Of a stretch of 51,277 nucleotides of DNA, positions 3,934-40,193 are shown piece by piece. The DNA comes from a phage, in sequence record NC_105513.1. The stretch is one strand, 5' to 3'. Under the pieces are notes generated by a model. That model made no database searches. It saw only the letters and a list, made by a program, of their open reading frames with translations, and was not told where the DNA came from. The first letter of the stretch is position 1; each line of letters starts with the position of its first letter. The position numbers were made by a program, and so were the translations under genes.

Positions 3934-3969
3934 GCATCCAGTTTAAACGCAACAAAAGGAGTAGACGCC

Positions 3970-4455
3970 ATGAGCGAAGAAAATATTAGCACCATGTCGC
4001 GTAGTGAGTTCTGCGATATGCTTCGCAGCCTGGGCGCGGCAATTGGTAGCGGTGAGCGTAATGATGTATTCATGCCAGCACTTTTTTTGTGCGCTAACGT
4101 GGAGAACGGCGAAGCAATTACGGCATCGTACATGCGCCAAGTGGTCAACCGTGTGCCAGAAGTAAAGCAAAAAGGCGTGATCAGCATTAAGCGAAAGGTG
4201 ACTGATGAGGGTGATGGCTTTGTGTTTACGCTCACTGAAGCCAAAAGCAAGCCTCGCGTTCTGACTGGTGAAGAAATCGACGAGATCGCAGAAAAGCGCG
4301 CAGAGAAGGCGGTAAGCAAAATTCTTAATCACCTGGTAAACGTAATGCCAAATATCACAGACCTGGAAGGCGACAAACTTGCTGGGGCGTGTGAGGCTAT
4401 CGGGCGCTACCAGGATATGATTCGTAAACTCGCTGGAGGAAAAGAGGATGAATAA
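3970..4455 (+). CDS. hypothetical protein
   Basis: 161 aa from MSEENIST; RBS AAGGAG; downstream of TTGACA-17-AATAAT promoter. Confidence 0.6.
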   Translation: MSEENISTMSRSEFCDMLRSLGAAIGSGERNDVFMPALFLCANVENGEAITASYMRQVVNRVPEVKQKGVISIKRKVTDEGDGFVFTLTEAKSKPRVLTGEEIDEIAEKRAEKAVSKILNHLVNVMPNITDLEGDKLAGACEAIGRYQDMIRKLAGGKEDE

Positions 4456-5770: not shown

Positions 5771-6208
5771 ATGTACATTAGCAAGAAGATGAAATGCGTT
5801 TCCGTTAATTATGGTTGTGCTGGAATGTTCAAGCCTGGCGAAATCTATACGGCGCAAAAACTGAAATCATCAACCGGATCCTTTTACGTGAGCAATAGTA
5901 AAGGGCATCGCATGTTCCTGAACGGTGGCGAAGGCACTAAGGTTATGGCGCACGCTATGGTGATTGCTGAATTTGAGGAAGTGAAAGATGGAACAAATAA
6001 GCGCGTTAAGCACAAGTTTATTGATAATCATGGCGATGCACTTGAGGTATATAAGTTCGGCGATCGCGTGTTTATTGATGGCACATTTGAAGGTGGACGC
6101 AGGCCGGATTTTAGATCGATACTCACCATTGACCAGGTGCGCAAGCTGGCGGATAAGTTAAATGATCTGGCAGATGAAATCGAATACAAGCAAATTCATT
6201 TTAATTGA
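5771..6208 (+). CDS. hypothetical protein
   Basis: 145 aa from MYISKKMK; RBS AAGGAG. Confidence 0.55.
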   Translation: MYISKKMKCVSVNYGCAGMFKPGEIYTAQKLKSSTGSFYVSNSKGHRMFLNGGEGTKVMAHAMVIAEFEEVKDGTNKRVKHKFIDNHGDALEVYKFGDRVFIDGTFEGGRRPDFRSILTIDQVRKLADKLNDLADEIEYKQIHFN

Positions 6209-6219
6209 TAGGTTTGATA

Positions 6220-6759
6220 ATGAAAAAATACGAATTTGAACTTTGGGGCAGCAAATACCATTTTTCCACGAGCAAGCCGATTGTTATCGTTGACCTGGAC
6301 GGAACGTTATCAGACGGAACGCATCGCTTACACCTGCTTCCGACAGAAGATTTGCACCTTACAGAAAGCTGGTCTGAGTTCAATAAGGCGGCTGTTGGCG
6401 ATTCGCCGATTAAGAGCACGGTTGCAGTGGTTAACGGTTTGTGGATGTCAGGATTTGCCATCGTTATCCTGACCGGACGTAGCGATGAAGTGATGGAGGA
6501 CACCTGCAAATGGATTAACGAAAACGGCATCAAGTACGATGCGTTAATCATGCGCCGCAAGGAAGACAACCGCAAAGACACAATCATTAAAGAAGAAGTC
6601 TTGCGCGCTATCGGCCTAGAAAACATCGTGTGCGCTTTTGATGATTCGCCGAACGTGGTTAAGCACTTCCGCAGCCTGGGAATCACAACCTATCAGGTCA
6701 CGGAATACGACAAGCCACATAATCATATCCAATCGCATGGCGTGGAGGAATTGAAATGA
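6220..6759 (+). CDS. HAD-superfamily phosphatase-like protein
   Basis: 179 aa; DxDGT nucleophile motif (IVIVDLDGTLSDG), later ILTGR and FDDSP motifs typical of HAD hydrolases. Confidence 0.6.
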   Translation: MKKYEFELWGSKYHFSTSKPIVIVDLDGTLSDGTHRLHLLPTEDLHLTESWSEFNKAAVGDSPIKSTVAVVNGLWMSGFAIVILTGRSDEVMEDTCKWINENGIKYDALIMRRKEDNRKDTIIKEEVLRAIGLENIVCAFDDSPNVVKHFRSLGITTYQVTEYDKPHNHIQSHGVEELK

Positions 6760-6917
6760 TCTGGTTACTTTTAATCTTTGTCACAAGTTACAATTCCGCC
6801 GCTATTGAATCGCAAGAGTTCCACGGCGAATCAAGATGCCAGGAAGCACGAAAACAAGTTGTTCTCCACATGTCAGATAGTGGGAAAGATGTAACAGCGC
6901 TATGCGTTCGTAAATAG
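6756..6917 (+). CDS. small membrane protein (MIWLL family, 53 aa)
   Basis: ATG overlaps upstream stop; hydrophobic N-terminus MIWLLLIFVTSY; stop TAG embedded in promoter box. Confidence 0.45.
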   Translation: MIWLLLIFVTSYNSAAIESQEFHGESRCQEARKQVVLHMSDSGKDVTALCVRK

Positions 6918-22513: not shown

Positions 22514-25186
22514 ATGTCAGAACAATACGCAGGCTTGACGCTTGGGGTTGACGTTTCTCAACTCAACAATGCTGTAAAGTCTTTGCAGCAATTCAAGAAG
22601 GCAAACGACGACGCAAAGGGAAGCATTGAGAGTTTTGTTGATTCAGAGGTTGTTGCAAGACAAAGAGCCAAACAACTGGCTGAGGAATTGGCAAAGCAGA
22701 AGCAAGAATTTAAAGCAATTCAGTCGGCAATAGATCCGACAGCAAGCAAAATGGATAAGTTGCGCCAGGCTGCGACACAGCTTGATGCGCTTTGGAAAAA
22801 AGGAATTGTTCCGGATGATACATTCTTTGAGTTAGGATCAATTCTTGAGACGCAGCAAAACAAACTGATCGCAACTAAAAAGGCGCTAACTGAAGAAGGC
22901 CGCGCGGCGCTTGAGGAAGCAAAAAACAAGGCAAGGGCAGAGGCTGAGGCAAGAAAGTTCATTGCGGCATTGCAGGCGCAAGCTGACGCAGCGGAAAAAA
23001 CAAAATCAGAGCTTGTCGAAATGAGAGCCGCACAACTTGGAGTTAGTGCAGAGGCAGCGCCATTTATTGCAAAAATGAAGGAGCAGGAAAAACAAGCCTC
23101 AAAACTTGGCGTTTCTATGGGGCAGTACAAGCAAGCAATGGCGCAATTGCCAATGCAGATCACTGACGTTGTTACTTCTCTTGCTTCAGGTATGCCAGTA
23201 TGGATGATCGCAATCCAGCAGGGGGGGCAAATCAAGGACTCATTCGGCGGTGTTGCTAATACGTTTAAAGCGCTAATGACATTTGTCACGCCGCTAAGTG
23301 TTGGCATGACGGCGCTGACTGGTGCGCTTGGTTATGCTGCATATAATGCATACAAAGCAAATGCGCAACTAAAGGAGATCACAAAAACCGTTCAGGAGGC
23401 AACTGGTCTTTCTGGTGATTTTGCGGAGCGTATTGCAACTGGAATCCAGGCGCTATCTGACAAGACAGGAGAGAGCGCAGACAATATCGCAAAGGCTTAC
23501 ATAAGCACGAAGGATGGAGCAAGCGAGGCTATACAAAAACTCGTCGATGTTGGTTTTACCTATGATGAAGCAAAGGCTAAGGTAAACGAATACAAAAACG
23601 CATCAAGTTTTGTAAGTCTTAACAATGAAATTGCTGATCACAAAAACAAAGTTCTTGAGCTTGGTGATTCATGGTATGCGGTCTTAAAAGCAAAACGTGA
23701 TTATGCTTCACCGTCCGGCGGGCTGTTGGGGAAAGAGCTTGGTTATGTGAATCCAATGCTGCAATTTGCGAAGAACACCTATGAGGATATAGGAAAGATC
23801 GTAAAAGATGCGAATAAGGATATGGCGGAACGAGCAGCACGCATCGACAGAGAAAACCTTTCATTAAACAGAGTTCGAGCGGCGCAAGAGGCTTTAAACA
23901 AAGCCATAGAGGATCAGAAGAACGTAGCAAGGACAGCAGACGAAGAGTTGAAAAAGCGCGCGGCTGAGAACGTGGAGTTCAGGCGAAAAGAGCTTGAAGA
24001 GGCGAAGAAGGCGCAGCAGCAAAAGGAGAAAGTTGGTGGAGTTGTAAAAGCACCAACAGAGCAGCTTGATAAGGAGCTATATGTTCTCAAGGCGCAACTT
24101 GAAACGCTGAAAGAGCACCGAACTGTAAATGATGTTATTTCACGCCAGAGGCAATCTTTGTGGAGCATTGAAAAGCAGATCCAGATCCTTGAGGAAGCGC
24201 AAAGTAAACGCAAGCTGACAAAAGCGGAACAGGCGTTACTAAACGAGCAAAAAGCAGTTATTGCTATGGCAAAAGAAAAGGCAGAGATAGGCGATCAGAT
24301 TGTTTTGCAACAGAGAAAGAACAAGCAATACCAGGAAGGGCTTAAATTCATTCAGCAAACATCAGATGCTATTGACGCTATGAACTTGCGACAGTCTGGA
24401 GCTACAGATCTGCAAATCCAGCGAGAGCTTGAGTTGAAGAAGTTGCGAACTGATTATGTTGCTGGCGGCGGTAGTATCGACGATGAAATTTATCAGCAGA
24501 TGGAAGCAAAGCTGAAGGAGTATTACGCCACTGAGGATCAGCTTAGAAATAACTGGATTGCAGGAGCAAAAAACGCATGGGAGGTTTACGGACAAGATGC
24601 AATGGATATGTACGGCAACGTGCAAGATATTGCAAGCGAGGCGCTCAACGGTCTAACCAACCAAATGGCTACATTCCTTGCAACAGGAAAGGCAAACTTT
24701 AAGAGCTTCGCAACGTCAATCATCCAAATGATTATCCAGATGATCACAAAGATGGTTATCTTTAATGCCATATCCGGTGCGATTGGCGGTGACACTTGGA
24801 CGATTGGAAGCCTTCTTAAAAATGTTGGATTTGCAACTGGTGGATACACTGGCGACGGCGGGAAGTATGAGCCAGCAGGTGTTGTTCATAAAGGCGAGTT
24901 TGTCATGACGAAGGAGGCCACGAAGCGGATCGGAGTTGGAAATCTTTACAAAATGATGCGCGGTTATGCAAATGGCGGCGTTGTTGGCGGCACTTCATAC
25001 ACTGGCGGCGGAGTTTCATCTGGAGCAACAAATCTTAATATTGGCGGGATCAGCGTTGATATTAACAACGGAAGCGATCCGAAAGGGTTGGAGACTGGCG
25101 TAAAAATGATTTTCACTGATATGATTAAGCGTTCCTGTACGCAGGGTGGGGAAGTTTACGAATTTGTTATGTCTAAGCGGGGGTGA
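22514..25186 (+). CDS. tail tape measure protein
   Basis: 890 aa, long alpha-helical charged N-terminal two-thirds, hydrophobic segment, Gly-rich C-terminus; position after G/GT. Confidence 0.85.
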
Positions 25187-35697: not shown

Positions 35698-35704
35698 TCA
35701 ACAA

Positions 35705-35726
35705 AGGGGCACTACGCCCCTTTTTC
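35705..35726. terminator. bidirectional terminator between ssb and convergent gene
   Basis: AGGGGC-ACTAC-GCCCCT then TTTTTC; A-run upstream. Confidence 0.6.
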
Positions 35727-35969
35727 ACTTTCAGCCATCCCAAGCACGGCAATCACCTTAACAGCAATTCTCTTTGCAAGTTCAGTTTGATGAGCGTTAA
35801 GTTTTCCAGTGGTCATTATTGACAACATTCCGCTCATACTTCCAAGACCGTTAAAATCTGACATTGCCGATTTCATTATTGATATTGGCGAATGACCTTC
35901 ATCAGCTATTGTGTGCGCTCTCTCTGACAGGTCTTTAACTACCTGATCAATTCCTTCACTTTTCGTCAT
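35712..35969 (-). CDS. hypothetical protein
   Basis: 85 aa ORF; stop lies inside bidirectional terminator. Confidence 0.4.
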   Translation of the reverse strand: MTKSEGIDQVVKDLSERAHTIADEGHSPISIMKSAMSDFNGLGSMSGMLSIMTTGKLNAHQTELAKRIAVKVIAVLGMAESEKGA

Positions 35970-36447
35970 TTGCTTTTCCTTCAGGAGTTGATTGCTGTTC
36001 TGGCATTACAGGCCACGGGCTAATTGATTCCCTTTCTGCTACTGGCTTTTCAGGCTCAATTCCTAAAAACTTTCCTACAAACTCACCAACAAAATTTGAG
36101 CTATCGCTTACATAAACATGCATCCTGTCTAGATCTGCAACCGTAACGCTATTTGGTGCGATCATGATCCTCTGTTGGTGAAAACCGATATACATCACAT
36201 TAGCCGGACGCTCAAGAGTCCCCATATTTGGCGCAATTACGCCCATTATCCAACAATAATGAATGTTGCCATCAAGCGGCTCACATCCAGCGTTAAGCCA
36301 GTTTACTTTCTGGTGAGGAAACGCCATCGATGAATCAGTAGCATCACGCCGTAACGACCATTTAACGCCGCCAATCTCAATGATTTGTTTCGGCCTCATC
36401 CCGTTGAATTGAGTCACGCCAGCGCCATTTTGATTAATGTTTTGCAT
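35956..36447 (-). CDS. hypothetical protein
   Basis: 163 aa ORF. Confidence 0.5.
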   Translation of the reverse strand: MQNINQNGAGVTQFNGMRPKQIIEIGGVKWSLRRDATDSSMAFPHQKVNWLNAGCEPLDGNIHYCWIMGVIAPNMGTLERPANVMYIGFHQQRIMIAPNSVTVADLDRMHVYVSDSSNFVGEFVGKFLGIEPEKPVAERESISPWPVMPEQQSTPEGKANDEK

Positions 36448-36461
36448 ATCGGTTAACCTTT

Positions 36462-36785
36462 TTACATTGATTTCATTTTACGCAATGCGCAGATACAAGC
36501 GGCAGCAAGATCGGTTAATTCTTTCTCAATGCCATGATGCGAGCCGTCTGCCTTTTCGGTCATTAGCTCTTTGTATTCCATTTCTACAATCGACATTAAG
36601 CCGCCTGGCTTGTCAATGTGCGCGTCCCAGGTTTTAGGATGGTGCTTAGTTCTTTCAATAACACTTCCCATAACTGAATCATGTTCATGATCTCGATCAT
36701 AATCTCCATCATTGTCCTTTCCTCCAATTACTACTCGCGGCAAATGCACGCGAGGTAAATGATAGCCAGCGACACGAATTTTCAT
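36462..36785 (-). CDS. hypothetical protein, possibly MazG-like nucleotide pyrophosphohydrolase
   Basis: 107 aa; helical segment with spaced acidic residues (VEMEYKELMTE ... IEKELTDLAAA); weak. Confidence 0.4.
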   Translation of the reverse strand: MKIRVAGYHLPRVHLPRVVIGGKDNDGDYDRDHEHDSVMGSVIERTKHHPKTWDAHIDKPGGLMSIVEMEYKELMTEKADGSHHGIEKELTDLAAACICALRKMKSM

Positions 36786-36796
36786 GAGTATATCCC

Positions 36797-36824
36797 CTTA
36801 TAAAAAAGCGCCCCGAAAGGCGCT
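36797..36824 (-). terminator. rho-independent terminator after glycine-rich gene
   Basis: AAGCGCC-CCGAAA-GGCGCTT; on minus strand followed by TTTTTTAT. Confidence 0.6.
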
Positions 36825-36831
36825 TGATTTA

Positions 36832-37536
36832 TTAGCAACCGCAGCAGCCAGTCGGCGGAGTCGCCGGAGTAGGCAACTTGAAGTTTACCAGTTGCTCGAC
36901 CTGGTTGATTTTGCAATTCAGTGCGGCGGTCTGGTTTGCCTGAGAAAGAGCAAAACGAGCCTCCTGCAACTGAGCTTTCATATCACAAATCAGAACAGCC
37001 TGAGAATCAGCGAACTGTTGACGAATCAGATCTCGCGTTGCATTGCCTTGTCGCTCAATATTCAGGTTTGTCTCACAGCAACATCTCTCCGCTGCAATCT
37101 GTGCCTGATAGGAACGCTCAAGAGCATTAACATCAGCAGCATTAATCGCAGCAACTGTCTGGTTAGTACCGCTAACAATCGCGGTATTCAGTCCGGCGAA
37201 ACCTTGCACCGATGCAAGCAGGTTTTGCGTATTCTGGCTGGTAATGCCGTTAAAGGTTGATGCGGCGGAGCGCTCAACGGCAAGGTTTGTGGAGTTTTGG
37301 CCTTGCAGAGTTTGCAGCCCCAGGTTGTTTACGCCTGTCTGGATGTTATTAATACCATCAAGAACAGCGTTAGCACCGACAGCAACAGCCGCACCATCAC
37401 CACCATAACCACCACGACCATTAAAGCCGTTACCAAACCATGACCCAATCAGGCCGCCAACAGCACCGCCAAGTCCAGCCGCGCCAGCTTCGCCACCAAA
37501 ACCACCACCAGTAGGGAGTAAAGTCATATCCGACAT
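36832..37536 (-). CDS. glycine-rich protein of unknown function
   Basis: 234 aa from MSDMTLLPTGGG (RBS AAGAGGAA); Gly-rich N-terminus, Gln/Asn-rich helical middle, C-terminus PTGCCGC; terminators on both sides. Confidence 0.55.
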   Translation of the reverse strand: MSDMTLLPTGGGFGGEAGAAGLGGAVGGLIGSWFGNGFNGRGGYGGDGAAVAVGANAVLDGINNIQTGVNNLGLQTLQGQNSTNLAVERSAASTFNGITSQNTQNLLASVQGFAGLNTAIVSGTNQTVAAINAADVNALERSYQAQIAAERCCCETNLNIERQGNATRDLIRQQFADSQAVLICDMKAQLQEARFALSQANQTAALNCKINQVEQLVNFKLPTPATPPTGCCGC

Positions 37537-37670
37537 AGTAAATTCCTCTTTGACGTTAAAAAATATTAAAAAAGTTTGTAACACTCTCGTTACGACAAAG
37601 AGTATGCGCCTAACTGTCAGGAATAGATATAAAACATTTGTAAGCGATATGTCAGCAAATGGCATAAAGA

Positions 37671-37700
37671 CGAAAAAAGGCGCAGCCTAAGCCGCGCCTT
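37671..37700 (-). terminator. rho-independent terminator after tail fibre gene
   Basis: minus strand AAGGCGCGGC-TTAG-GCTGCGCCTT then TTTTTCG. Confidence 0.65.
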
Positions 37701-37714
37701 GTGATTATTTTTTG

Positions 37715-40111
37715 TTAACTCTCAAGAGTTGTTGGCTTGTTGATCAATGCAGAAACAGCCGCTTTTAACTCCTCTATTTCTTCTCTCATTGATTTCAAGT
37801 CTTCTTCTTGCTCCTTACATACCTGAAGTAAATATGCTGAAATTGCTGAGTAATCAACTTGTAAAAATTCAGCTTTACCTATTAACTCACTTCCGTCTTT
37901 CGTCGGCCCTTGAAGATAATCATAATCCTCAAAAGTGCTAACAGCTTCAGGAATAACTCCTTGAACTTCTTGTGCTATAACTCCAACATGACGAGATCCA
38001 TCTTTCTTAAGTGTGTATGAATACCCACACAGTTTACTAAGTCCATCCCTTGCATTCTTAAGTGGTTTTATATCTTCCTTAAGATTTACATCCGATCCCT
38101 GGTTGAAAGCGCTTGCGTTTACAGGTCCGTTAACCTGAAGATGCTTTGTGTTATTTGAGTTTAATTGCGCATAAAAAACCCACCCAGGGCCATTATCGAA
38201 ACCACACTCAATAACCGACAATCGATCTGACCCATTACCCCACAATTTGAAGGTTGCAGGGTGTGACGAGTTGCCGTCGTTCAGCATTTTGAAATACTTT
38301 CCGCTCGGACGGTCGATCTCTAAACTTGCGGCCTGGACGTATGCCTTGCCCGCAAAATTCTTTGTACCAAGCACAACGCCGTCTGTGATCAGATCAACCT
38401 TAGACGATGTAACATCGTTCAGGAATAGCGCGTTCGCCCCAGTGTCCTTCCCTAAAAACCAAAGACGCGTGCCTGCTGAGTTGTACCCTGTTACGTGCAG
38501 TGGTTGGTTGTTTGTTGACGTTGTTCCGTCGATCCGGAAGCCACCATTAGCGGTTGTAACTTTAATGCTGGGTACGGTCATAGCAAATGTGCCACTGGCT
38601 GCAAGGCCATTATAGGCAATCAGCTTGTTGTCATATGCAAGCTCACCATTGTCCCTTAATTGCAAGAATTTATTAGATGCCGAGTTGGAAACAGAAACAT
38701 CATTAGGCCAGGTGCGAAGAACTGCGCGCTTTTCGTCCCCTCTAGCCTCCACCGAAGAACCAGCGACCACCCCAGAAAAAGTCGGCGACGACCCCGCGTT
38801 ATACAGTTCGTACCACTGCGACCATGGGCCAGTCGTCGCGTTGCCTAGCCATCGAATCCAACGCCGCCCGTTGCCGTAGGCGGTGTACGTCTGTACGCAA
38901 CTCTTCGGATCGTTAGCACCGGATCTTTGCACCAGTAAACAACCCGCCATGTTAATAGGATAGTTACGCTCTGGGGTGGCGTTAGCCGACATGGACTGAT
39001 AATAAAATCCAGCCTTATCACCCTGAAGGATGTTAAGGTCTTCGCTAACCAACGTTGCCCGTCGCTCATGCATGACCTGAAGGTTGGCGCGCGCTCCCTG
39101 GTCGTTCGATGCGCCTGTCCCGCCGTCCCCGATCGCCACGTCACCGTTAGCACCCAGCTTCGCCAGTTCAATGGCGCCAACACTTCCCGACGCACCGTTG
39201 ATCGCGTTGTTGTTCCCCGAGAAAACTTTAACGCGCGAGGTTTGCCAATCAACGTTGATTGCAAAGAATGTATCCCCCGCGCCTCCACATACGCCAGGTC
39301 CGTATCTGAAAGGGGTCATCTCACCCGATGGGAACTGCGAAATATCATCGACGCGCCAGAATCCTCCTTTGACCGTATCGCGCAACCGCTTGAGCATATC
39401 CCTTACGCCAGTCGGTGCCGGTAATGTTACGCCAGCATACGGCACTCTATTTTGAGCTTCTGAGCTTTCAGCAGCAGCCGCTGCGCGATCAGCCTCTGTT
39501 TTAGCCTTGTTCGCACTGTTTGCAGCATTAGTTTCAGATGTTTTGGCGTTTGTCTCAGAAGTCTTCGCGGCACTAGCCGAGTTAGCAGCATTAGTTTCCG
39601 ATGTTTTAGCCGCATTCTTACTTGCATTAGCTGCATTTTCAGATGCTTTGGCATTAGTTTCCGATGTTTTAGCGTTTGTCTCAGAAGTCTTCGCAGCGCT
39701 GGCGCTTTGTTTTGCTGATTCAGCGCCTTGCTTGACTTGATTTACAAGATCCTTCAATCCTTCAAGATCGAAATCTCTAAAAAATTCAAGTGCGTCAGCG
39801 ATCTCTGTTTCTTTGCTTTGATAGTAACGCAATGTTTCAGCTACATCTTGAGCAAGACCATCAACAGTTATTGAGTCATGAAGTAAGATCGCGTAATTTG
39901 AACGGGCAACTACCGCGCCACCAGTTGTAATTGCACGAATGCTTGTATCGTTAATAACTTCAGTTATCACGGCAATCTGCAACGGCTGAGTTAAAAATAC
40001 AATAGTTGCACCAGGGCGAATGAGCGTTAGTTGCTCTCGCCATTTTGTGTCGTATCCAGTGATATAACCTTGCGCGTCCATTGACGCTTGTCCTGTTCTG
40101 TAAATTGCCAT
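37715..40111 (-). CDS. L-shaped (side) tail fibre, T5 pb1-like, with C-terminal intramolecular chaperone domain
   Basis: 798 aa from MAIYRTGQ (RBS GGAGAAA); AAKTSETNA-type repeats as in T5 pb1; C-terminal segment resembling S74 self-cleaving chaperone domain. Confidence 0.8.
39480..39720 (-). repeat. in-frame tandem repeats (about 62-bp period) inside tail fibre gene
   Basis: GCATTAGTTTC(A/C)GATGTTTT(G/A)GC recurs at about 39527, 39589, 39651; encodes AAKTSETNA-type repeats. Confidence 0.7.
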
Positions 40112-40169
40112 GCGCTTTCTCCAATGTTGCATGTTAATGTCAATGAAGATAATAGCATTTGCTAAGGCC

Positions 40170-40193
40170 AAAAAAAACCCCGCAATGCGGGGT
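40170..40193 (-). terminator. rho-independent terminator after primase-like gene
   Basis: ACCCCGC-AAT-GCGGGGT; minus strand followed by eight U. Confidence 0.65.

What the first reader, a model, noticed from the sequence alone, without database searches (positions are those of the whole stretch)
36832..37536. Stand-alone glycine-rich gene insulated by terminators next to the tail fibre gene
234-aa product: N-terminal Gly-rich segment (GGGFGGEAGAAGLGGAVGGLIGSWFGNGFNGRGGYGGDGAA), then a Gln/Asn/Ala-rich helical region, ending PTGCCGC. The gene has its own RBS and sits between two terminators (37671..37700 and 36797..36824), i.e. a separate transcription unit (moron-like). Gly-rich N-termini of this kind occur in secreted bacteriocin/microcin-type proteins and in some fibre proteins. 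I cannot assign it to a known family.
Basis: partly seen in the sequence, partly recalled or inferred. Interest (0 to 1): 0.6.

Follow-up and report, generated by a model that had tools for sequence, protein, structure and literature searches.

The report
Glycine-zipper coiled-coil phage accessory protein
The gene is real and encodes an uncharacterised phage protein, probably membrane-inserting with a very long helical stalk, that leads a four-gene accessory operon found in many unrelated phages; it is neither a stand-alone gene, nor a bacteriocin, nor an essential virion part.

Summary
The window is a T1-like (Drexlerviridae, Hanrivervirus) coliphage. The 234-aa ORF (36832..37536, minus strand), its strong RBS and both flanking hairpin terminators are confirmed. 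The protein belongs to PHROG 9288 (unknown function). The family has thousands of unnamed members, all on phage contigs, with no hit in Pfam, NCBIfam, PADLOC or the PDB.

Its parts are an acidic N-tail, a strictly conserved four-turn glycine zipper, a Gly/aromatic linker, one predicted helix of about 163 residues with a conserved Cys triplet, and a Pro/Thr/Cys tail. The N-terminal part resembles the influenza HA2 fusion peptide in residue order.

The gene is not stand-alone. Only 20 nt separate its terminator from the next start codon. The order A, MazG-like NTP pyrophosphohydrolase, C, D recurs in eight annotated phage lineages and in metagenomic contigs (B follows A in 45 of 51 IMG/VR loci). 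Placement next to a tail fibre gene is common but not universal.

Phage 9NA carries a deletion through A, B and part of C, and T5-like phages hold decayed copies. Intact copies are under purifying selection (dN/dS 0.08).

Best reading: a membrane-inserted, oligomeric coiled-coil protein in a dispensable accessory cassette. Its actual function is unknown.

The parts
37677..37700 (-). Intrinsic terminator hairpin ending the lateral tail fibre gene. It marks the upstream boundary of the cassette; the T-tract runs to about 37667.
   Evidence: 10-bp stem, 7 G-C pairs, -19 kcal/mol. The same site is annotated in G29-2.
37537..37676 (-). A 140-nt leader and regulatory region that travels with the gene. 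It contains an imperfect palindrome, CGTAAC-N6-GTTAC (37578-37594), and the RBS AAGAGGA (37544-37550).
   Evidence: An alignment with the CAjan and Sergei upstream regions shows conserved blocks and the GTAACC/GGTTAC inverted repeat; Sergei keeps the pairing through a G-U pair. The palindrome occurs once in the window against 0.07 expected. No sigma-70 consensus promoter was found.
36832..37536 (-). Gene A: the 234-aa glycine-zipper coiled-coil protein (PHROG 9288).
   Evidence: dN/dS is 0.08.
37489..37536 (-). Codons 1-16: acidic N-tail with the conserved M-[DE]-x-M-x-L-L-P motif.
   Evidence: The net charge of the N-tail is -2 in 242 of 311 family members.
37432..37488 (-). Codons 17-35: glycine zipper. 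Small residues fall at 17, 21, 23/24, 27/28, 31/32 and 35, with hydrophobic residues between them. The segment resembles a fusion peptide.
   Evidence: Column statistics give a Gly/Ala/Ser fraction of 0.83-1.00 at those positions. G27 and G31 are invariant in the 58-sequence alignment A2 and present in 34 and 33 of 35 rows of A1. The maximum Kyte-Doolittle value is 1.13, which is weakly hydrophobic. The PDB profile search matches the HA2 fusion peptide.
37372..37431 (-). Codons 36-55: Gly/aromatic/Arg linker (NGFNGRGGYGGDG...), modelled with low confidence.
   Evidence: pLDDT is below 50. The net charge after the zipper is usually +1.
36883..37371 (-). Codons 56-218: a single predicted helix of 163 residues. 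At 1.5 Å per residue that is about 24 nm. It is rich in Ala, Asn and Gln, poor in charged residues, and contains the QGFAGLNT motif.
   Evidence: AlphaFold2 with 58 sequences predicts helix 56-218, with block-mean pLDDT 68-89 for residues 121-210. The hydrophobic period is about 3.62-3.68 over most of the helix; over residues 150-218 the strongest peaks are 3.34 and 5.78. The number of QGF-type repeats varies among homologues.
37075..37083 (-). Codons 152-154: the conserved Cys-Cys-Cys triplet inside the helix.
   Evidence: Invariant in alignment A2, and present in 87% of 311 family members.
36835..36882 (-). Codons 219-234: the Pro/Thr tail ending in GCCGC.
   Evidence: The tail is variable across the family, being Thr/Ser/Ala-rich in most members. 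A C-terminal Cys cluster occurs in 94 of 311.
36806..36825 (-). Internal terminator or attenuator hairpin between A and B; the T-tract runs to about 36798. It probably sets expression of A above that of B, C and D.
   Evidence: Only 20 nt separate the stem from the ATG of B at 36785, and those 20 nt hold B's RBS. A similar but weaker site is present in Sergei. None was detected in CAjan or X1.
36462..36785 (-). Gene B: 107 aa, with a His/Asp-rich N-terminus and a core resembling the all-alpha NTP pyrophosphohydrolases (MazG/HisE type).
   Evidence: PHROG 9157. The profile matches PDB 2P06 (AF_0060) at E = 1.5e-3. One family member hits Pfam PRA-PH at E = 0.016. E70, E73 and E89 are invariant, giving E-x-x-E, 15 residues, E-x-x-D.
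35956..36447 (-). Gene C: 163 aa of unknown fold, with a conserved I-S-P-W-P motif and an acidic tail.
   Evidence: PHROG 8329. No Pfam or PDB hits. C lies near A in 6 of 7 distant contigs and 33 of 51 IMG/VR loci.
35712..35969 (-). Gene D: 85 aa, function unknown.
   Evidence: PHROG 7239. Alignment A6. D follows A on the same strand in 30 of 51 IMG/VR loci.
35703..35723 (.). Hairpin at the convergent junction between the SSB gene (plus strand) and gene D. It marks the downstream end of the cassette.
   Evidence: Equivalent hairpins follow the cassette in Sergei, CAjan and X1.

Best explanation
Gene A encodes a membrane-active, homo-oligomerising coiled-coil protein. It is the first and most strongly expressed gene of a self-contained four-gene accessory operon: A, a MazG-like NTP pyrophosphohydrolase (B), C and D. 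The operon moves horizontally among virulent phages of enterobacteria and relatives.

Proposed mechanism (inferred). The short acidic N-tail and the four-turn glycine zipper (residues 17-35) insert into the host inner membrane. The zipper is too weakly hydrophobic to sit there stably as a monomer, so helices probably pack glycine face to glycine face, as in viroporins, pinholins and fusion peptides.

The charge distribution puts the N-terminus outside and the rest in the cytoplasm. The helix of about 163 residues, with its hydrophobic seam and Cys triplet, would then form a cytoplasmic stalk. This stalk would hold the oligomer together and could dock the soluble cassette partners B, C and D at the membrane.

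The terminator after A attenuates transcription, so that A is made in excess over B, C and D.

The cassette is not needed for virion assembly or for lysis. It most likely gives a conditional advantage in nature, such as exclusion of competing phages, countering a host defence, or host takeover. Which of these applies is not shown.

Shown: the gene, its architecture, the conservation pattern, the operon linkage, the dispensability and the purifying selection. Inferred: membrane insertion, topology, oligomerisation, partner docking and biological role.
For: Architecture. The family alignment shows small residues (Gly/Ala/Ser fraction 0.83-1.00) at positions 17, 21, 23/24, 27/28, 31/32 and 35, with hydrophobic residues between them. 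This holds at only about 30% overall identity. Such position-specific conservation is not expected of a disordered low-complexity region. Two divergent members carry a plainly hydrophobic segment at the same place (P0209, P0172).

Resemblance to HA2. The PDB profile search returns only influenza HA2 fusion peptide plus helix A (E about 1e-3). The match depends on residue order: 19.7 bits, against a maximum of 11.4 in 1000 full shuffles and 16.6 in 1000 domain-preserving shuffles.

Topology. The mean net charge of the N-tail is -1.9, and that of the 15 residues after the zipper is +0.57. The C-side flank is the more positive in 92% of 311 members. B, C and D have no hydrophobic segment (maximum Kyte-Doolittle 0.58-0.94), which fits a cytoplasmic stalk.

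Helix. AlphaFold2 predicts one helix spanning residues 56-218, with a periodic hydrophobic seam of about 3.62-3.68 residues over most of its length.

Operon. There are 20 nt between the terminator stem and the ATG of B. The A-B-C-D order is found in Hanrivervirus, Seuratvirus, Sashavirus, Nonanavirus, Eiauvirus, PY100/X1, Aeromonas phiWae15 and Enterobacter N5822. Of 51 IMG/VR loci with enough downstream sequence, 45 have B, 33 have C and 30 have D on the same strand.

Accessory status. Phage 9NA has a deletion through A, B and part of C. JakobBernoulli's copy is annotated as two CDS with no indel, which implies an internal stop; I did not translate it. T5-like phages carry pseudogene remnants. 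Yet dN/dS is 0.08 where the gene is intact. The phage has its own holin, endolysin and u-spanin elsewhere.
Against: There is no experimental or direct computational proof of membrane insertion. The zipper's hydropathy (maximum Kyte-Doolittle 1.13 here, family mean 1.24) is below the usual threshold for a transmembrane helix. AlphaFold2 models residues 1-55 with low confidence, and no multimer model could be run.

The eight cysteines, including a C-terminal cluster, would suit an oxidising compartment such as the periplasm or the virion exterior better than the cytoplasm. That argues against the N-out, C-in topology.

The charge bias is small in absolute terms, and the 311 sequences are related to each other, so they are not independent observations.

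The gene's frequent position just after tail fibre or tail genes also fits a late or structural role. No promoter was identified. The HA2 similarity is marginal in E-value and is almost certainly convergent.
Confidence: 0.4

Rival explanations
1. A is a virion-associated fibrous or ejected protein. It could be an accessory whisker or fibre, or a helper resembling a tape measure protein, whose fusion-peptide-like N-terminus inserts into the host envelope during DNA delivery.
For: A is the first gene after tail fibre or host-specificity genes in Hanrivervirus, Seuratvirus, Eiauvirus, T5-like phages and several metagenomic phages. Its composition (Ala/Asn/Gln/Thr-rich, few charges) resembles the coiled-coil segments of fibres. 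A strong RBS followed by a terminator suits an abundant late protein. There are weak local matches to tape measure proteins: PHROG 167 at E = 0.007, and the phage's own tape measure residues 753-782 at pairwise E = 0.015. Cysteines could cross-link after release from the cell. One depositor named it 'lateral tail fiber chaperone'.
Against: Phage 9NA lacks all but 47 residues of A and still forms infectious virions. A is absent from most of the named hits from Drexlerviridae genera outside Hanrivervirus and a few Salmonella, Klebsiella and Enterobacter relatives. In Sashavirus, Nonanavirus and PY100/X1 it lies outside the tail module. Its most constant neighbours are a predicted nucleotide hydrolase and small soluble proteins, not structural genes. 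In Hanrivervirus relatives the fibre gene diverges while A stays 93-100% identical. In the PY100 record the homologue (ORF29) is named only 'hypothetical protein'; the paper reporting a virion proteome analysis of PY100 (cited) could not be read.
Confidence: 0.15
2. A is a lysis-related membrane protein. It could be an extra holin or antiholin that tunes lysis timing, or a spanin-like factor acting in envelope fusion.
For: Glycine-zipper and weakly hydrophobic (SAR-like) segments are typical of pinholins and SAR proteins (my own knowledge). The fusion-peptide-like N-terminus followed by a long helix recalls membrane-fusion machinery. At 1.5 Å per residue the 163-residue helix is about 24 nm long, comparable to the width of the periplasm. 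In two metagenomic phages A lies within a few genes of the endolysin and holin. Cysteines would suit a periplasmic location.
Against: The phage already has a contiguous holin, endolysin and u-spanin cassette about 8 kb away. A is never directly adjacent to an endolysin in the annotated phages. The charge bias is the opposite of that in i-spanins, which have the N-terminus inside. No lipoprotein partner lies next to it. It co-occurs with a nucleotide hydrolase. It is dispensable in 9NA.
Confidence: 0.12
3. A is a soluble cytoplasmic scaffold. The Gly/aromatic head and the Gln/Asn-rich rod would assemble into filaments or condensates, like an intermediate filament, and organise the cassette enzymes or phage DNA metabolism.
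For: The plan of Gly/aromatic head, long rod and Cys-containing tail is reminiscent of keratin-type intermediate filaments (my own knowledge). The N-terminal segment is too weakly hydrophobic for a classical transmembrane helix. The cassette often borders replication and recombination genes. Its partners are soluble.
Against: The strict four-residue spacing of small residues, the invariant G27 and G31, and the replacement by a truly hydrophobic segment in some members all point to helix packing in a membrane rather than a disordered head. There is no homology to known cytoskeletal families.
Confidence: 0.1
4. A is a secreted bacteriocin or microcin-type toxin.
For: The Gly-rich N-terminus resembles Gly-rich class II microcins and glycine-zipper bacteriocins (my own knowledge). 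Some members have a Cys-rich C-terminus.
Against: At 234 aa it is far longer than microcins. The N-terminus lacks the double-glycine leader consensus. No neighbouring gene in any examined locus has a precomputed Pfam hit to an export, peptidase or immunity family, though most neighbours have no hit at all. The family is confined to phage contigs. A pattern scan of 185,579 species genomes found only 4 loci, all in metagenome-assembled genomes. There are no PADLOC, Pfam or NCBIfam hits.
Confidence: 0.03

Closest known systems
Influenza haemagglutinin HA2 (class I viral fusion protein): fusion peptide plus helix A
   Same: Both have a Gly-rich, aromatic-containing amphipathic segment with small residues every fourth position, followed by a Gly/aromatic turn and an Asn/Gln-rich helix. 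HA2 is the only kind of PDB sequence the family profile finds (E about 1e-3), and the match depends on residue order. The whole downstream region is predicted as one extended helix.
   Different: The E-value is marginal and common ancestry is very unlikely. A has no C-terminal transmembrane anchor, no receptor-binding subunit and no known proteolytic priming. Its segment is preceded by 16 residues rather than being a free N-terminus. The hydrophobic period is about 3.62-3.68 rather than a heptad 3.5.
Glycine-zipper membrane proteins, viroporins and pinholins (for example S21 68, VacA, and the PrP and A-beta hydrophobic cores)
   Same: A has a repeated small-xxx-small motif over four to five helical turns and weak hydrophobicity, and is inferred to need oligomerisation. 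The sequence AGAAGLGGAVGGLIGS closely recalls the PrP segment AGAAAAGAVVGGLGG (my own knowledge).
   Different: Those proteins are short or have more than one membrane segment. None carries a 160-residue helix. A is not next to an endolysin. Pore formation has not been tested.
Spanins (lambda Rz i-spanin, T1 gp11 u-spanin)
   Same: They are also phage-encoded, with a single N-terminal membrane segment followed by a long helical domain containing cysteines. A's helix (about 24 nm at 1.5 Å per residue) is comparable in length to the width of the periplasm.
   Different: The charge bias predicts the opposite orientation. There is no lipoprotein partner and no lipobox. The phage has its own u-spanin. 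A is dispensable.
Phage phi29 p16.7 (membrane-anchored coiled-coil organiser of DNA replication)
   Same: It has an N-terminal membrane anchor, a cytoplasmic coiled coil and docking of soluble partners at the membrane (my own knowledge). A's cassette often borders DNA-metabolism genes and includes a nucleotide hydrolase.
   Different: There is no sequence similarity, and no DNA-binding domain is recognisable in A. p16.7 is 130 aa and comes from a phage of a Gram-positive host. The resemblance is an analogy only.
Moron-encoded superinfection-exclusion membrane proteins (HK97 gp15, T4 Imm)
   Same: These are also dispensable and horizontally mobile, form their own expression units, and encode membrane proteins (my own knowledge).
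   Different: There is no homology. Those are single small genes, whereas this is a four-gene operon with an enzyme. No exclusion phenotype has been tested.
Class II microcins and glycine-zipper bacteriocins
   Same: A Gly-rich hydrophobic segment.
   Different: They differ in size, leader peptide, genetic context (export and immunity genes) and host range of the genes. See the membership test.

Membership tests
Class II microcins / double-glycine-leader bacteriocins | A small precursor (under about 100 aa) with an N-terminal double-glycine leader (LSxxELxxIxGG type) | tested here: not met
   The protein is 234 aa. The conserved N-terminus is M-[DE]-x-M-x-L-L-P-[VT], with no E-L-x-x-I-x-G-G pattern.
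Class II microcins / double-glycine-leader bacteriocins | Adjacent immunity gene and a C39-peptidase ABC exporter, located on bacterial chromosomes or plasmids | tested here: not met
   The neighbours are phage genes in every locus examined, and none has a precomputed Pfam hit to an exporter or peptidase family, though most have no hit at all. Only 4 loci, all in metagenome-assembled genomes, were found among species-representative genomes.
Holins / pinholins | At least one membrane-spanning segment, small size, a charged C-terminus, and a gene next to the endolysin | tested here: not met
   The only hydrophobic segment is weak (Kyte-Doolittle 1.13). The C-terminus is a Pro/Thr/Cys tail. The lysis cassette is elsewhere.
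Two-component or unimolecular spanins | An N-in membrane anchor with a periplasmic coiled coil plus an outer-membrane lipoprotein partner (or a lipobox plus a C-terminal transmembrane segment), located in the lysis cassette | tested here: not met
   The N-tail is acidic and the flank after the zipper is positive, which predicts N-out. There is no lipobox or embedded lipoprotein gene. A u-spanin is annotated elsewhere.
Class I viral fusion proteins (HA2-like) | A Gly-rich amphipathic fusion peptide | tested here: met
   The profile matches the HA2 fusion peptide plus helix A. The match exceeds all 2000 shuffles. This is a resemblance and not proof of function.
Class I viral fusion proteins (HA2-like) | A trimeric heptad-repeat coiled coil that refolds into a hairpin | tested here: inconclusive
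   A single long helix is predicted. The period is about 3.62-3.68 rather than 3.5.
Class I viral fusion proteins (HA2-like) | A C-terminal transmembrane anchor in the viral membrane | tested here: not met
   The C-terminus is a 16-residue Pro/Thr/Cys tail. Tailed phages have no envelope.
Glycine-zipper transmembrane helices | A (G/A/S)xxxGxxxG motif conserved on one helix face | tested here: met
   Small residues at 23/24, 27/28, 31/32 and 35 have a Gly/Ala/Ser fraction of 0.83-1.00 in the family.
Glycine-zipper transmembrane helices | Actual membrane insertion and homo-oligomeric packing | not testable with these tools
   This needs fractionation, topology reporters, cross-linking or a multimer model.
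Tail fibre / virion structural proteins | Homology to a structural family, or a requirement for virion formation | tested here: not met
   There is no structural-family hit apart from a weak local tape measure match. Phage 9NA lacks the gene.
Tail fibre / virion structural proteins | Physical presence in purified virions | not testable with these tools
   No virion proteome for a phage with an intact copy could be read. The PY100 paper is not held. The 9g and Henu8 papers contain no proteomics.
Morons / accessory expression units | Own regulatory signals, flanking terminators, patchy distribution among related phages, and dispensability | tested here: met
   There are terminators on both sides. 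The leader region travels with the gene. The cassette sits at different genomic positions in different phage groups. It is deleted or decayed in 9NA and T5-like phages. The promoter itself was not identified, and the unit is four genes, not one.
All-alpha NTP pyrophosphohydrolases (MazG/HisE), applied to neighbouring gene B only | A helical core of about 100 aa with an EXXE-(12-28)-EXXD metal-binding motif | tested here: met
   E70-x-x-E73, 15 residues, E89-x-x-D92, with E70, E73 and E89 invariant. PDB 2P06 matches at E = 1.5e-3. PRA-PH matches at E = 0.016 in one member. Both scores are below the curated thresholds, so membership is probable and not proven.

The most novel reading that the evidence does not exclude
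A-B-C-D is a previously undescribed phage accessory system. In it, a protein built like a class I fusion subunit (fusion-peptide-like glycine zipper plus a coiled coil of about 24 nm) remodels or perforates the host inner membrane, and works together with a MazG-like nucleotide hydrolase. The system might, for example, neutralise a membrane-linked or nucleotide-based host defence, or exclude competing phages. Protein A would then be the first phage protein with an HA2-like membrane-active module outside the lysis and DNA-entry machinery.
Probability: 0.12. Interest if true: 0.8.

Novelty: new variant of a known kind. Interest (0 to 1): 0.55.

Why it matters
The family is large: at least 4042 database proteins. 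It is spread across at least eight phage lineages that infect enterobacteria, Aeromonas and Edwardsiella, and several of those lineages include phages studied for phage therapy. Yet none of the four cassette proteins has a recognised function.

The cassette is under strong purifying selection but can be lost in laboratory phages. That is the signature of genes that matter only in natural conditions, such as anti-defence, exclusion or host-takeover functions.

A defined four-gene unit with natural knock-outs (9NA, JakobBernoulli, T5-like remnants) and a predicted enzyme makes the question directly testable. If the glycine-zipper and coiled-coil protein proves to be membrane-active, it would add a new architecture to the short list of phage membrane effectors (holins, spanins, exclusion proteins).

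Tried and rejected
1. Structure from a single sequence. AlphaFold2 gave pLDDT 46, which is unusable. The 58-sequence run gave one long helix. A Foldseek search of the PDB with that model found nothing. I ran no further fold searches, because a single helix matches only generic coiled coils.

2. Family libraries. Pfam, NCBIfam and PADLOC gave nothing credible for A, C or D. PDB profile searches for C and D were empty or at noise level.

3. Promoters. Sigma-70 consensus scans found no consistent promoter upstream of A in the window, X1, Sergei or CAjan. Own-promoter status therefore rests only on context: the divergent orientation in X1 and PY100, and the conserved leader.

4. Literature. Searches on Hanrivervirus, 9NA-like phages, CAjan/Seurat, PY100, 9g and glycine zippers in phages found no characterisation or virion proteome for the family. 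The PY100 proteome paper is not held.

5. Bacterial genomes. The first attempt failed because the alignment was too diverse. The second used a single peptide pattern and returned 4 loci in metagenome-assembled genomes. This is too narrow to prove absence from prophages.

6. My early idea that C is the most constant partner. That came from 7 contigs and was corrected by the larger IMG/VR sample, where B is the most constant (45 of 51).

7. The idea that A is the phage's spanin or holin. Rejected after finding the complete lysis cassette elsewhere.

8. A functional link to the tail fibre. Set aside after finding cassette positions away from tail genes and a similarity breakpoint between A and the fibre gene.
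Full report
**Identity of the window and check of the observation**

The region 36700-37800 is 100% identical to Escherichia phage JLBYU09 and 93-97% identical to other Hanrivervirus phages (Drexlerviridae, T1-like). The start codon is supported by an AAGAGGA Shine-Dalgarno sequence 7 nt upstream and by family-wide conservation of the N-terminus.

Both hairpin terminators exist. One is at 37700-37677 (10-bp stem, -19 kcal/mol). The other is at 36825-36806 (8-bp stem, -14.9 kcal/mol). Each is followed by a T-tract and each folds better than almost all shuffles. The annotators of phage G29-2 called the same two sites.

**Is it a real, conserved gene?**

Yes. The protein matches PHROG 9288 (unknown function) end to end at E = 7e-124. 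A single-sequence search found 230 homologues. An exhaustive search of 50%-identity cluster representatives found 91. A profile built from divergent members found at least 4042. None of the listed hits carries anything but a 'hypothetical protein'-type name or any Pfam domain.

Against the G29-2 orthologue, dN/dS is 0.08. Every genomic context examined was a phage contig. A pattern scan of species-representative bacterial genomes returned only four loci, all in metagenome-assembled genomes.

**Anatomy of the protein**

Alignments at about 30% identity show the following parts.

- Residues 1-16: an acidic N-tail with the motif M-[DE]-x-M-x-L-L-P.
- Residues 17-35: small residues fall every fourth position (17, 21, 23/24, 27/28, 31/32, 35; Gly/Ala/Ser fraction 0.83-1.00), with Leu, Val, Ile, Phe or Trp between them. 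G27 and G31 are invariant in the 58-sequence alignment. This is a textbook glycine zipper.
- Residues 36-55: a Gly/aromatic/Arg linker.
- Residues 56-218: a region that AlphaFold2, given 58 sequences, predicts as one uninterrupted helix, about 24 nm at 1.5 Å per residue. Block-mean pLDDT is 68-89 over residues 121-210.
- Residues 219-234: a Pro/Thr tail ending in GCCGC.

Further features of the helix and tail:

- The helix contains a QGFAGLNT motif that occurs in variable copy number in homologues, spaced 22 residues apart.
- It contains a Cys-Cys-Cys triplet, invariant in alignment A2 and present in 87% of 311 members, and a further conserved Cys at position 184.
- Its hydrophobic period is about 3.62-3.68 residues over most of the length, rather than 3.5. 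Over residues 150-218 the strongest peaks are 3.34 and 5.78.
- The tail is variable across the family. It is Thr/Ser/Ala-rich in most members, and 94 of 311 have a Cys cluster.

**Comparison with characterised families**

Pfam, NCBIfam, PADLOC and Foldseek against the PDB gave nothing. A profile search of PDB sequences returned one kind of protein only: influenza HA2, matching the fusion peptide plus the start of helix A at E about 1e-3.

Because both sequences are Gly-rich, I tested whether composition alone explains this. The real HA2 segment scores 19.7 bits. The best of 1000 full shuffles scores 11.4. The best of 1000 shuffles that keep the two halves separate scores 16.6. The resemblance therefore lies in residue order. 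I regard it as convergent, and as a lead on how the segment behaves, not as evidence of ancestry.

**Membrane insertion and topology (inference)**

The zipper is only weakly hydrophobic. Its maximum Kyte-Doolittle value is 1.13 here, and the family mean is 1.24. It resembles fusion peptides, SAR domains and pinholin helices rather than a classical membrane anchor. Two divergent homologues have a plainly hydrophobic segment at the same position.

Across 311 members the mean net charge of the N-tail is -1.9, and that of the flank after the zipper is +0.57. The second value is the more positive in 92% of members. By the positive-inside rule this predicts the N-terminus outside and the helix in the cytoplasm. 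The sequences are related to each other, so this is suggestive only. The many cysteines argue the other way.

**The gene is not stand-alone**

The stem of the downstream terminator ends at 36806, and the next gene starts at 36785. The 20 nt between them hold its RBS and leave no room for a promoter. Three genes follow on the same strand: B (107 aa), C (163 aa) and D (85 aa). These are PHROGs 9157, 8329 and 7239, all of unknown function.

The same order, with similar gene sizes, occurs in these phages:

- CAjan (Seuratvirus)
- Sergei (Sashavirus)
- PJ16 (Nonanavirus)
- X1 and PY100
- eiAU-183 (Eiauvirus)
- Aeromonas phiWae15
- Enterobacter N5822

Profiles of B, C and D detect C near A in 6 of 7 distant metagenomic phage contigs. 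In 51 IMG/VR loci with at least 2 kb downstream of A, B follows on the same strand in 45, C in 33 and D in 30. These are lower bounds, because the profiles were built from few sequences.

The 140-nt leader upstream of A is also conserved between Hanrivervirus, Seuratvirus and Sashavirus. It includes a GTAACC/GGTTAC inverted repeat about 40 nt before the ATG.

The unit is therefore a four-gene operon with an internal terminator, which most likely makes A more abundant than B, C and D. That internal terminator is clear in Hanrivervirus, weaker in Sergei, and not detected in CAjan or X1. No sigma-70 consensus promoter was found upstream in any of them, so the promoter remains unidentified.

**The neighbours**

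B has a His/Asp-rich N-terminus and a core with E-x-x-E, 15 residues, then E-x-x-D, where E70, E73 and E89 are invariant. Its profile matches PDB 2P06 (AF_0060) at E = 1.5e-3, and one family member hits Pfam PRA-PH at E = 0.016. From my own knowledge, AF_0060 is classed with the all-alpha NTP pyrophosphatases. B is therefore probably a MazG/HisE-type NTP pyrophosphohydrolase.

C and D gave no hits. None of B, C or D has a hydrophobic segment. They are thus likely cytoplasmic, which fits a cytoplasmic stalk on A.

**Relation to the tail fibre gene**

A is the first gene after tail fibre or host-specificity genes in Hanrivervirus, Seuratvirus, Eiauvirus, T5-like phages and several metagenomic phages.

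In other groups it lies elsewhere. It sits between terminase and portal in Sashavirus and Nonanavirus. It sits among early and DNA-metabolism genes in PY100 and X1. It lies after the lysis genes in one contig.

Among Hanrivervirus relatives, DNA similarity typically stops about 25-60 nt into the 3' end of the fibre gene while A stays 93-100% identical. The two genes therefore recombine independently. The end of the late operon is a common insertion site for accessory genes, which suffices to explain the neighbourhood.

**Dispensability**

- In the laboratory phage 9NA, the ORF after the terminase gene encodes the first 47 residues of A and then runs out of frame. B is missing, and C lacks its N-terminus. 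This is a deletion through the cassette.
- JakobBernoulli's copy differs by 12 substitutions with no indel, but is annotated as two CDS. That implies an internal stop codon, although I did not translate it.
- In T5-like Epseptimavirus phages only decayed pieces remain after the lateral tail fibre gene.
- The window's phage has a complete holin, endolysin and u-spanin cassette elsewhere.

A is thus not required for virion assembly or lysis. The strong purifying selection on intact copies points to a conditional benefit.

**Best explanation and rivals**

I consider it most likely (confidence about 0.4) that A is a membrane-active, oligomerising coiled-coil protein, anchored or inserted through its glycine zipper. 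It would act together with the soluble cassette proteins in an accessory function such as exclusion, anti-defence or host takeover.

The rivals are:

- a virion-associated fibre or ejection helper (0.15), weakened mainly by 9NA and by the non-structural partners;
- a lysis accessory (0.12), weakened by the separate lysis cassette and the charge bias;
- a soluble filament or condensate scaffold (0.10), weakened by the strict zipper pattern;
- a secreted bacteriocin (0.03), which fails every defining feature tested.

The remaining probability is for functions I have not thought of.

**Novelty**

The family is catalogued (PHROG 9288) but uncharacterised. In the searches run here I found no description of the architecture or of the conserved A, MazG-like, C, D operon. 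I file it as a new variant of a known general kind, namely mobile phage accessory units that encode a membrane protein. A small chance remains (about 0.12) that it is a genuinely new system built around an HA2-like membrane module.

**Limits**

Membrane insertion, topology, oligomeric state, expression timing and function are all inferences. The host range of the most distant members is unknown.

Noticed in passing
L029 (Salmonella phage 9NA, KJ802832) 5959-6765: 9NA carries a deletion through the cassette. gp12 is the first 47 residues of A followed by out-of-frame sequence. B is absent. gp13 is C without its N-terminus, and gp14 is D. This is a natural knock-out in a classic laboratory phage.
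   Followed up: yes
window 36462-36785 (-): Gene B has a His/Asp-rich N-terminus and an E-x-x-E, 15 residues, E-x-x-D motif, with weak matches to PDB 2P06 and Pfam PRA-PH. It is probably a MazG/HisE-type NTP pyrophosphohydrolase. It is the most constant neighbour of A (45 of 51 IMG/VR loci).
   Followed up: partly
window 35956-36447 (-): Gene C has two conserved cysteines, a conserved short motif I-S-P-W-P near the C-terminus and an acidic tail, which looks like a docking peptide. It has no recognisable fold. In JLBYU09 it is annotated, apparently wrongly, as 'putative TerL protein'.
   Followed up: partly
window 37578-37594 (-): An inverted repeat, CGTAAC-N6-GTTAC, lies in the leader about 40 nt before the ATG of A. 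It is conserved as GTAACC-N4-GGTTAC in CAjan and, with a G-U-compatible change, in Sergei. It could be an operator or an RNA hairpin. It occurs only once in the window.
   Followed up: partly
window 37715-40171 (-): The lateral tail fibre (818 aa) has SETNA-type coiled-coil repeats and a C-terminal Peptidase_S74 intramolecular chaperone domain. In JLBYU09 the corresponding region is about 2.3 kb shorter and is annotated as two short CDS, although the flanks are identical. The fibre gene is thus a mosaic hot spot.
   Followed up: partly
GenBank MG065636.1 and MG065637.1 (hits H2 and H3): Records named 'Campylobacter phage A16a/A15b', with Campylobacter jejuni given as host, are 99.8% identical to this E. 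coli T1-like phage over the query. This is likely a contaminant or a mislabelled host.
   Followed up: no
L006 (Salmonella phage polluks) 5749-6339; L013 (SuperGirl) 3959-4238: In T5-like Epseptimavirus phages, A survives only as broken fragments directly after the lateral tail fibre gene. In SuperGirl the fragments are annotated as 'tail fiber protein'. This suggests co-transfer with the 3' end of a fibre gene, followed by decay.
   Followed up: partly
window 22514-25183 (+), residues 753-782 of the tape measure protein: There is a short local similarity between A residues 22-48 and a Gly-rich segment near the C-terminus of the phage's own tape measure protein (pairwise E = 0.015). PHROG 167 (tape measure) also hits A weakly.
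   Followed up: partly
L020 6058-6906: In one metagenomic siphophage a Glyco_transf_8 gene lies directly upstream of the A homologue, whose tail, like most in the family, is Thr/Ser-rich. Glycosylation of the tail is conceivable, but this rests on a single case.
   Followed up: no
L024-L027 (genome-contig hits): The only hits in species-representative genomes are contigs binned into Anaerovoracaceae, Eubacteriales, Clostridia and Phocaeicola metagenome-assembled genomes. If these are true prophages, the family reaches phages of hosts far from the Proteobacteria, including Gram-positive ones, which would argue against a role specific to the periplasm.
   Followed up: no
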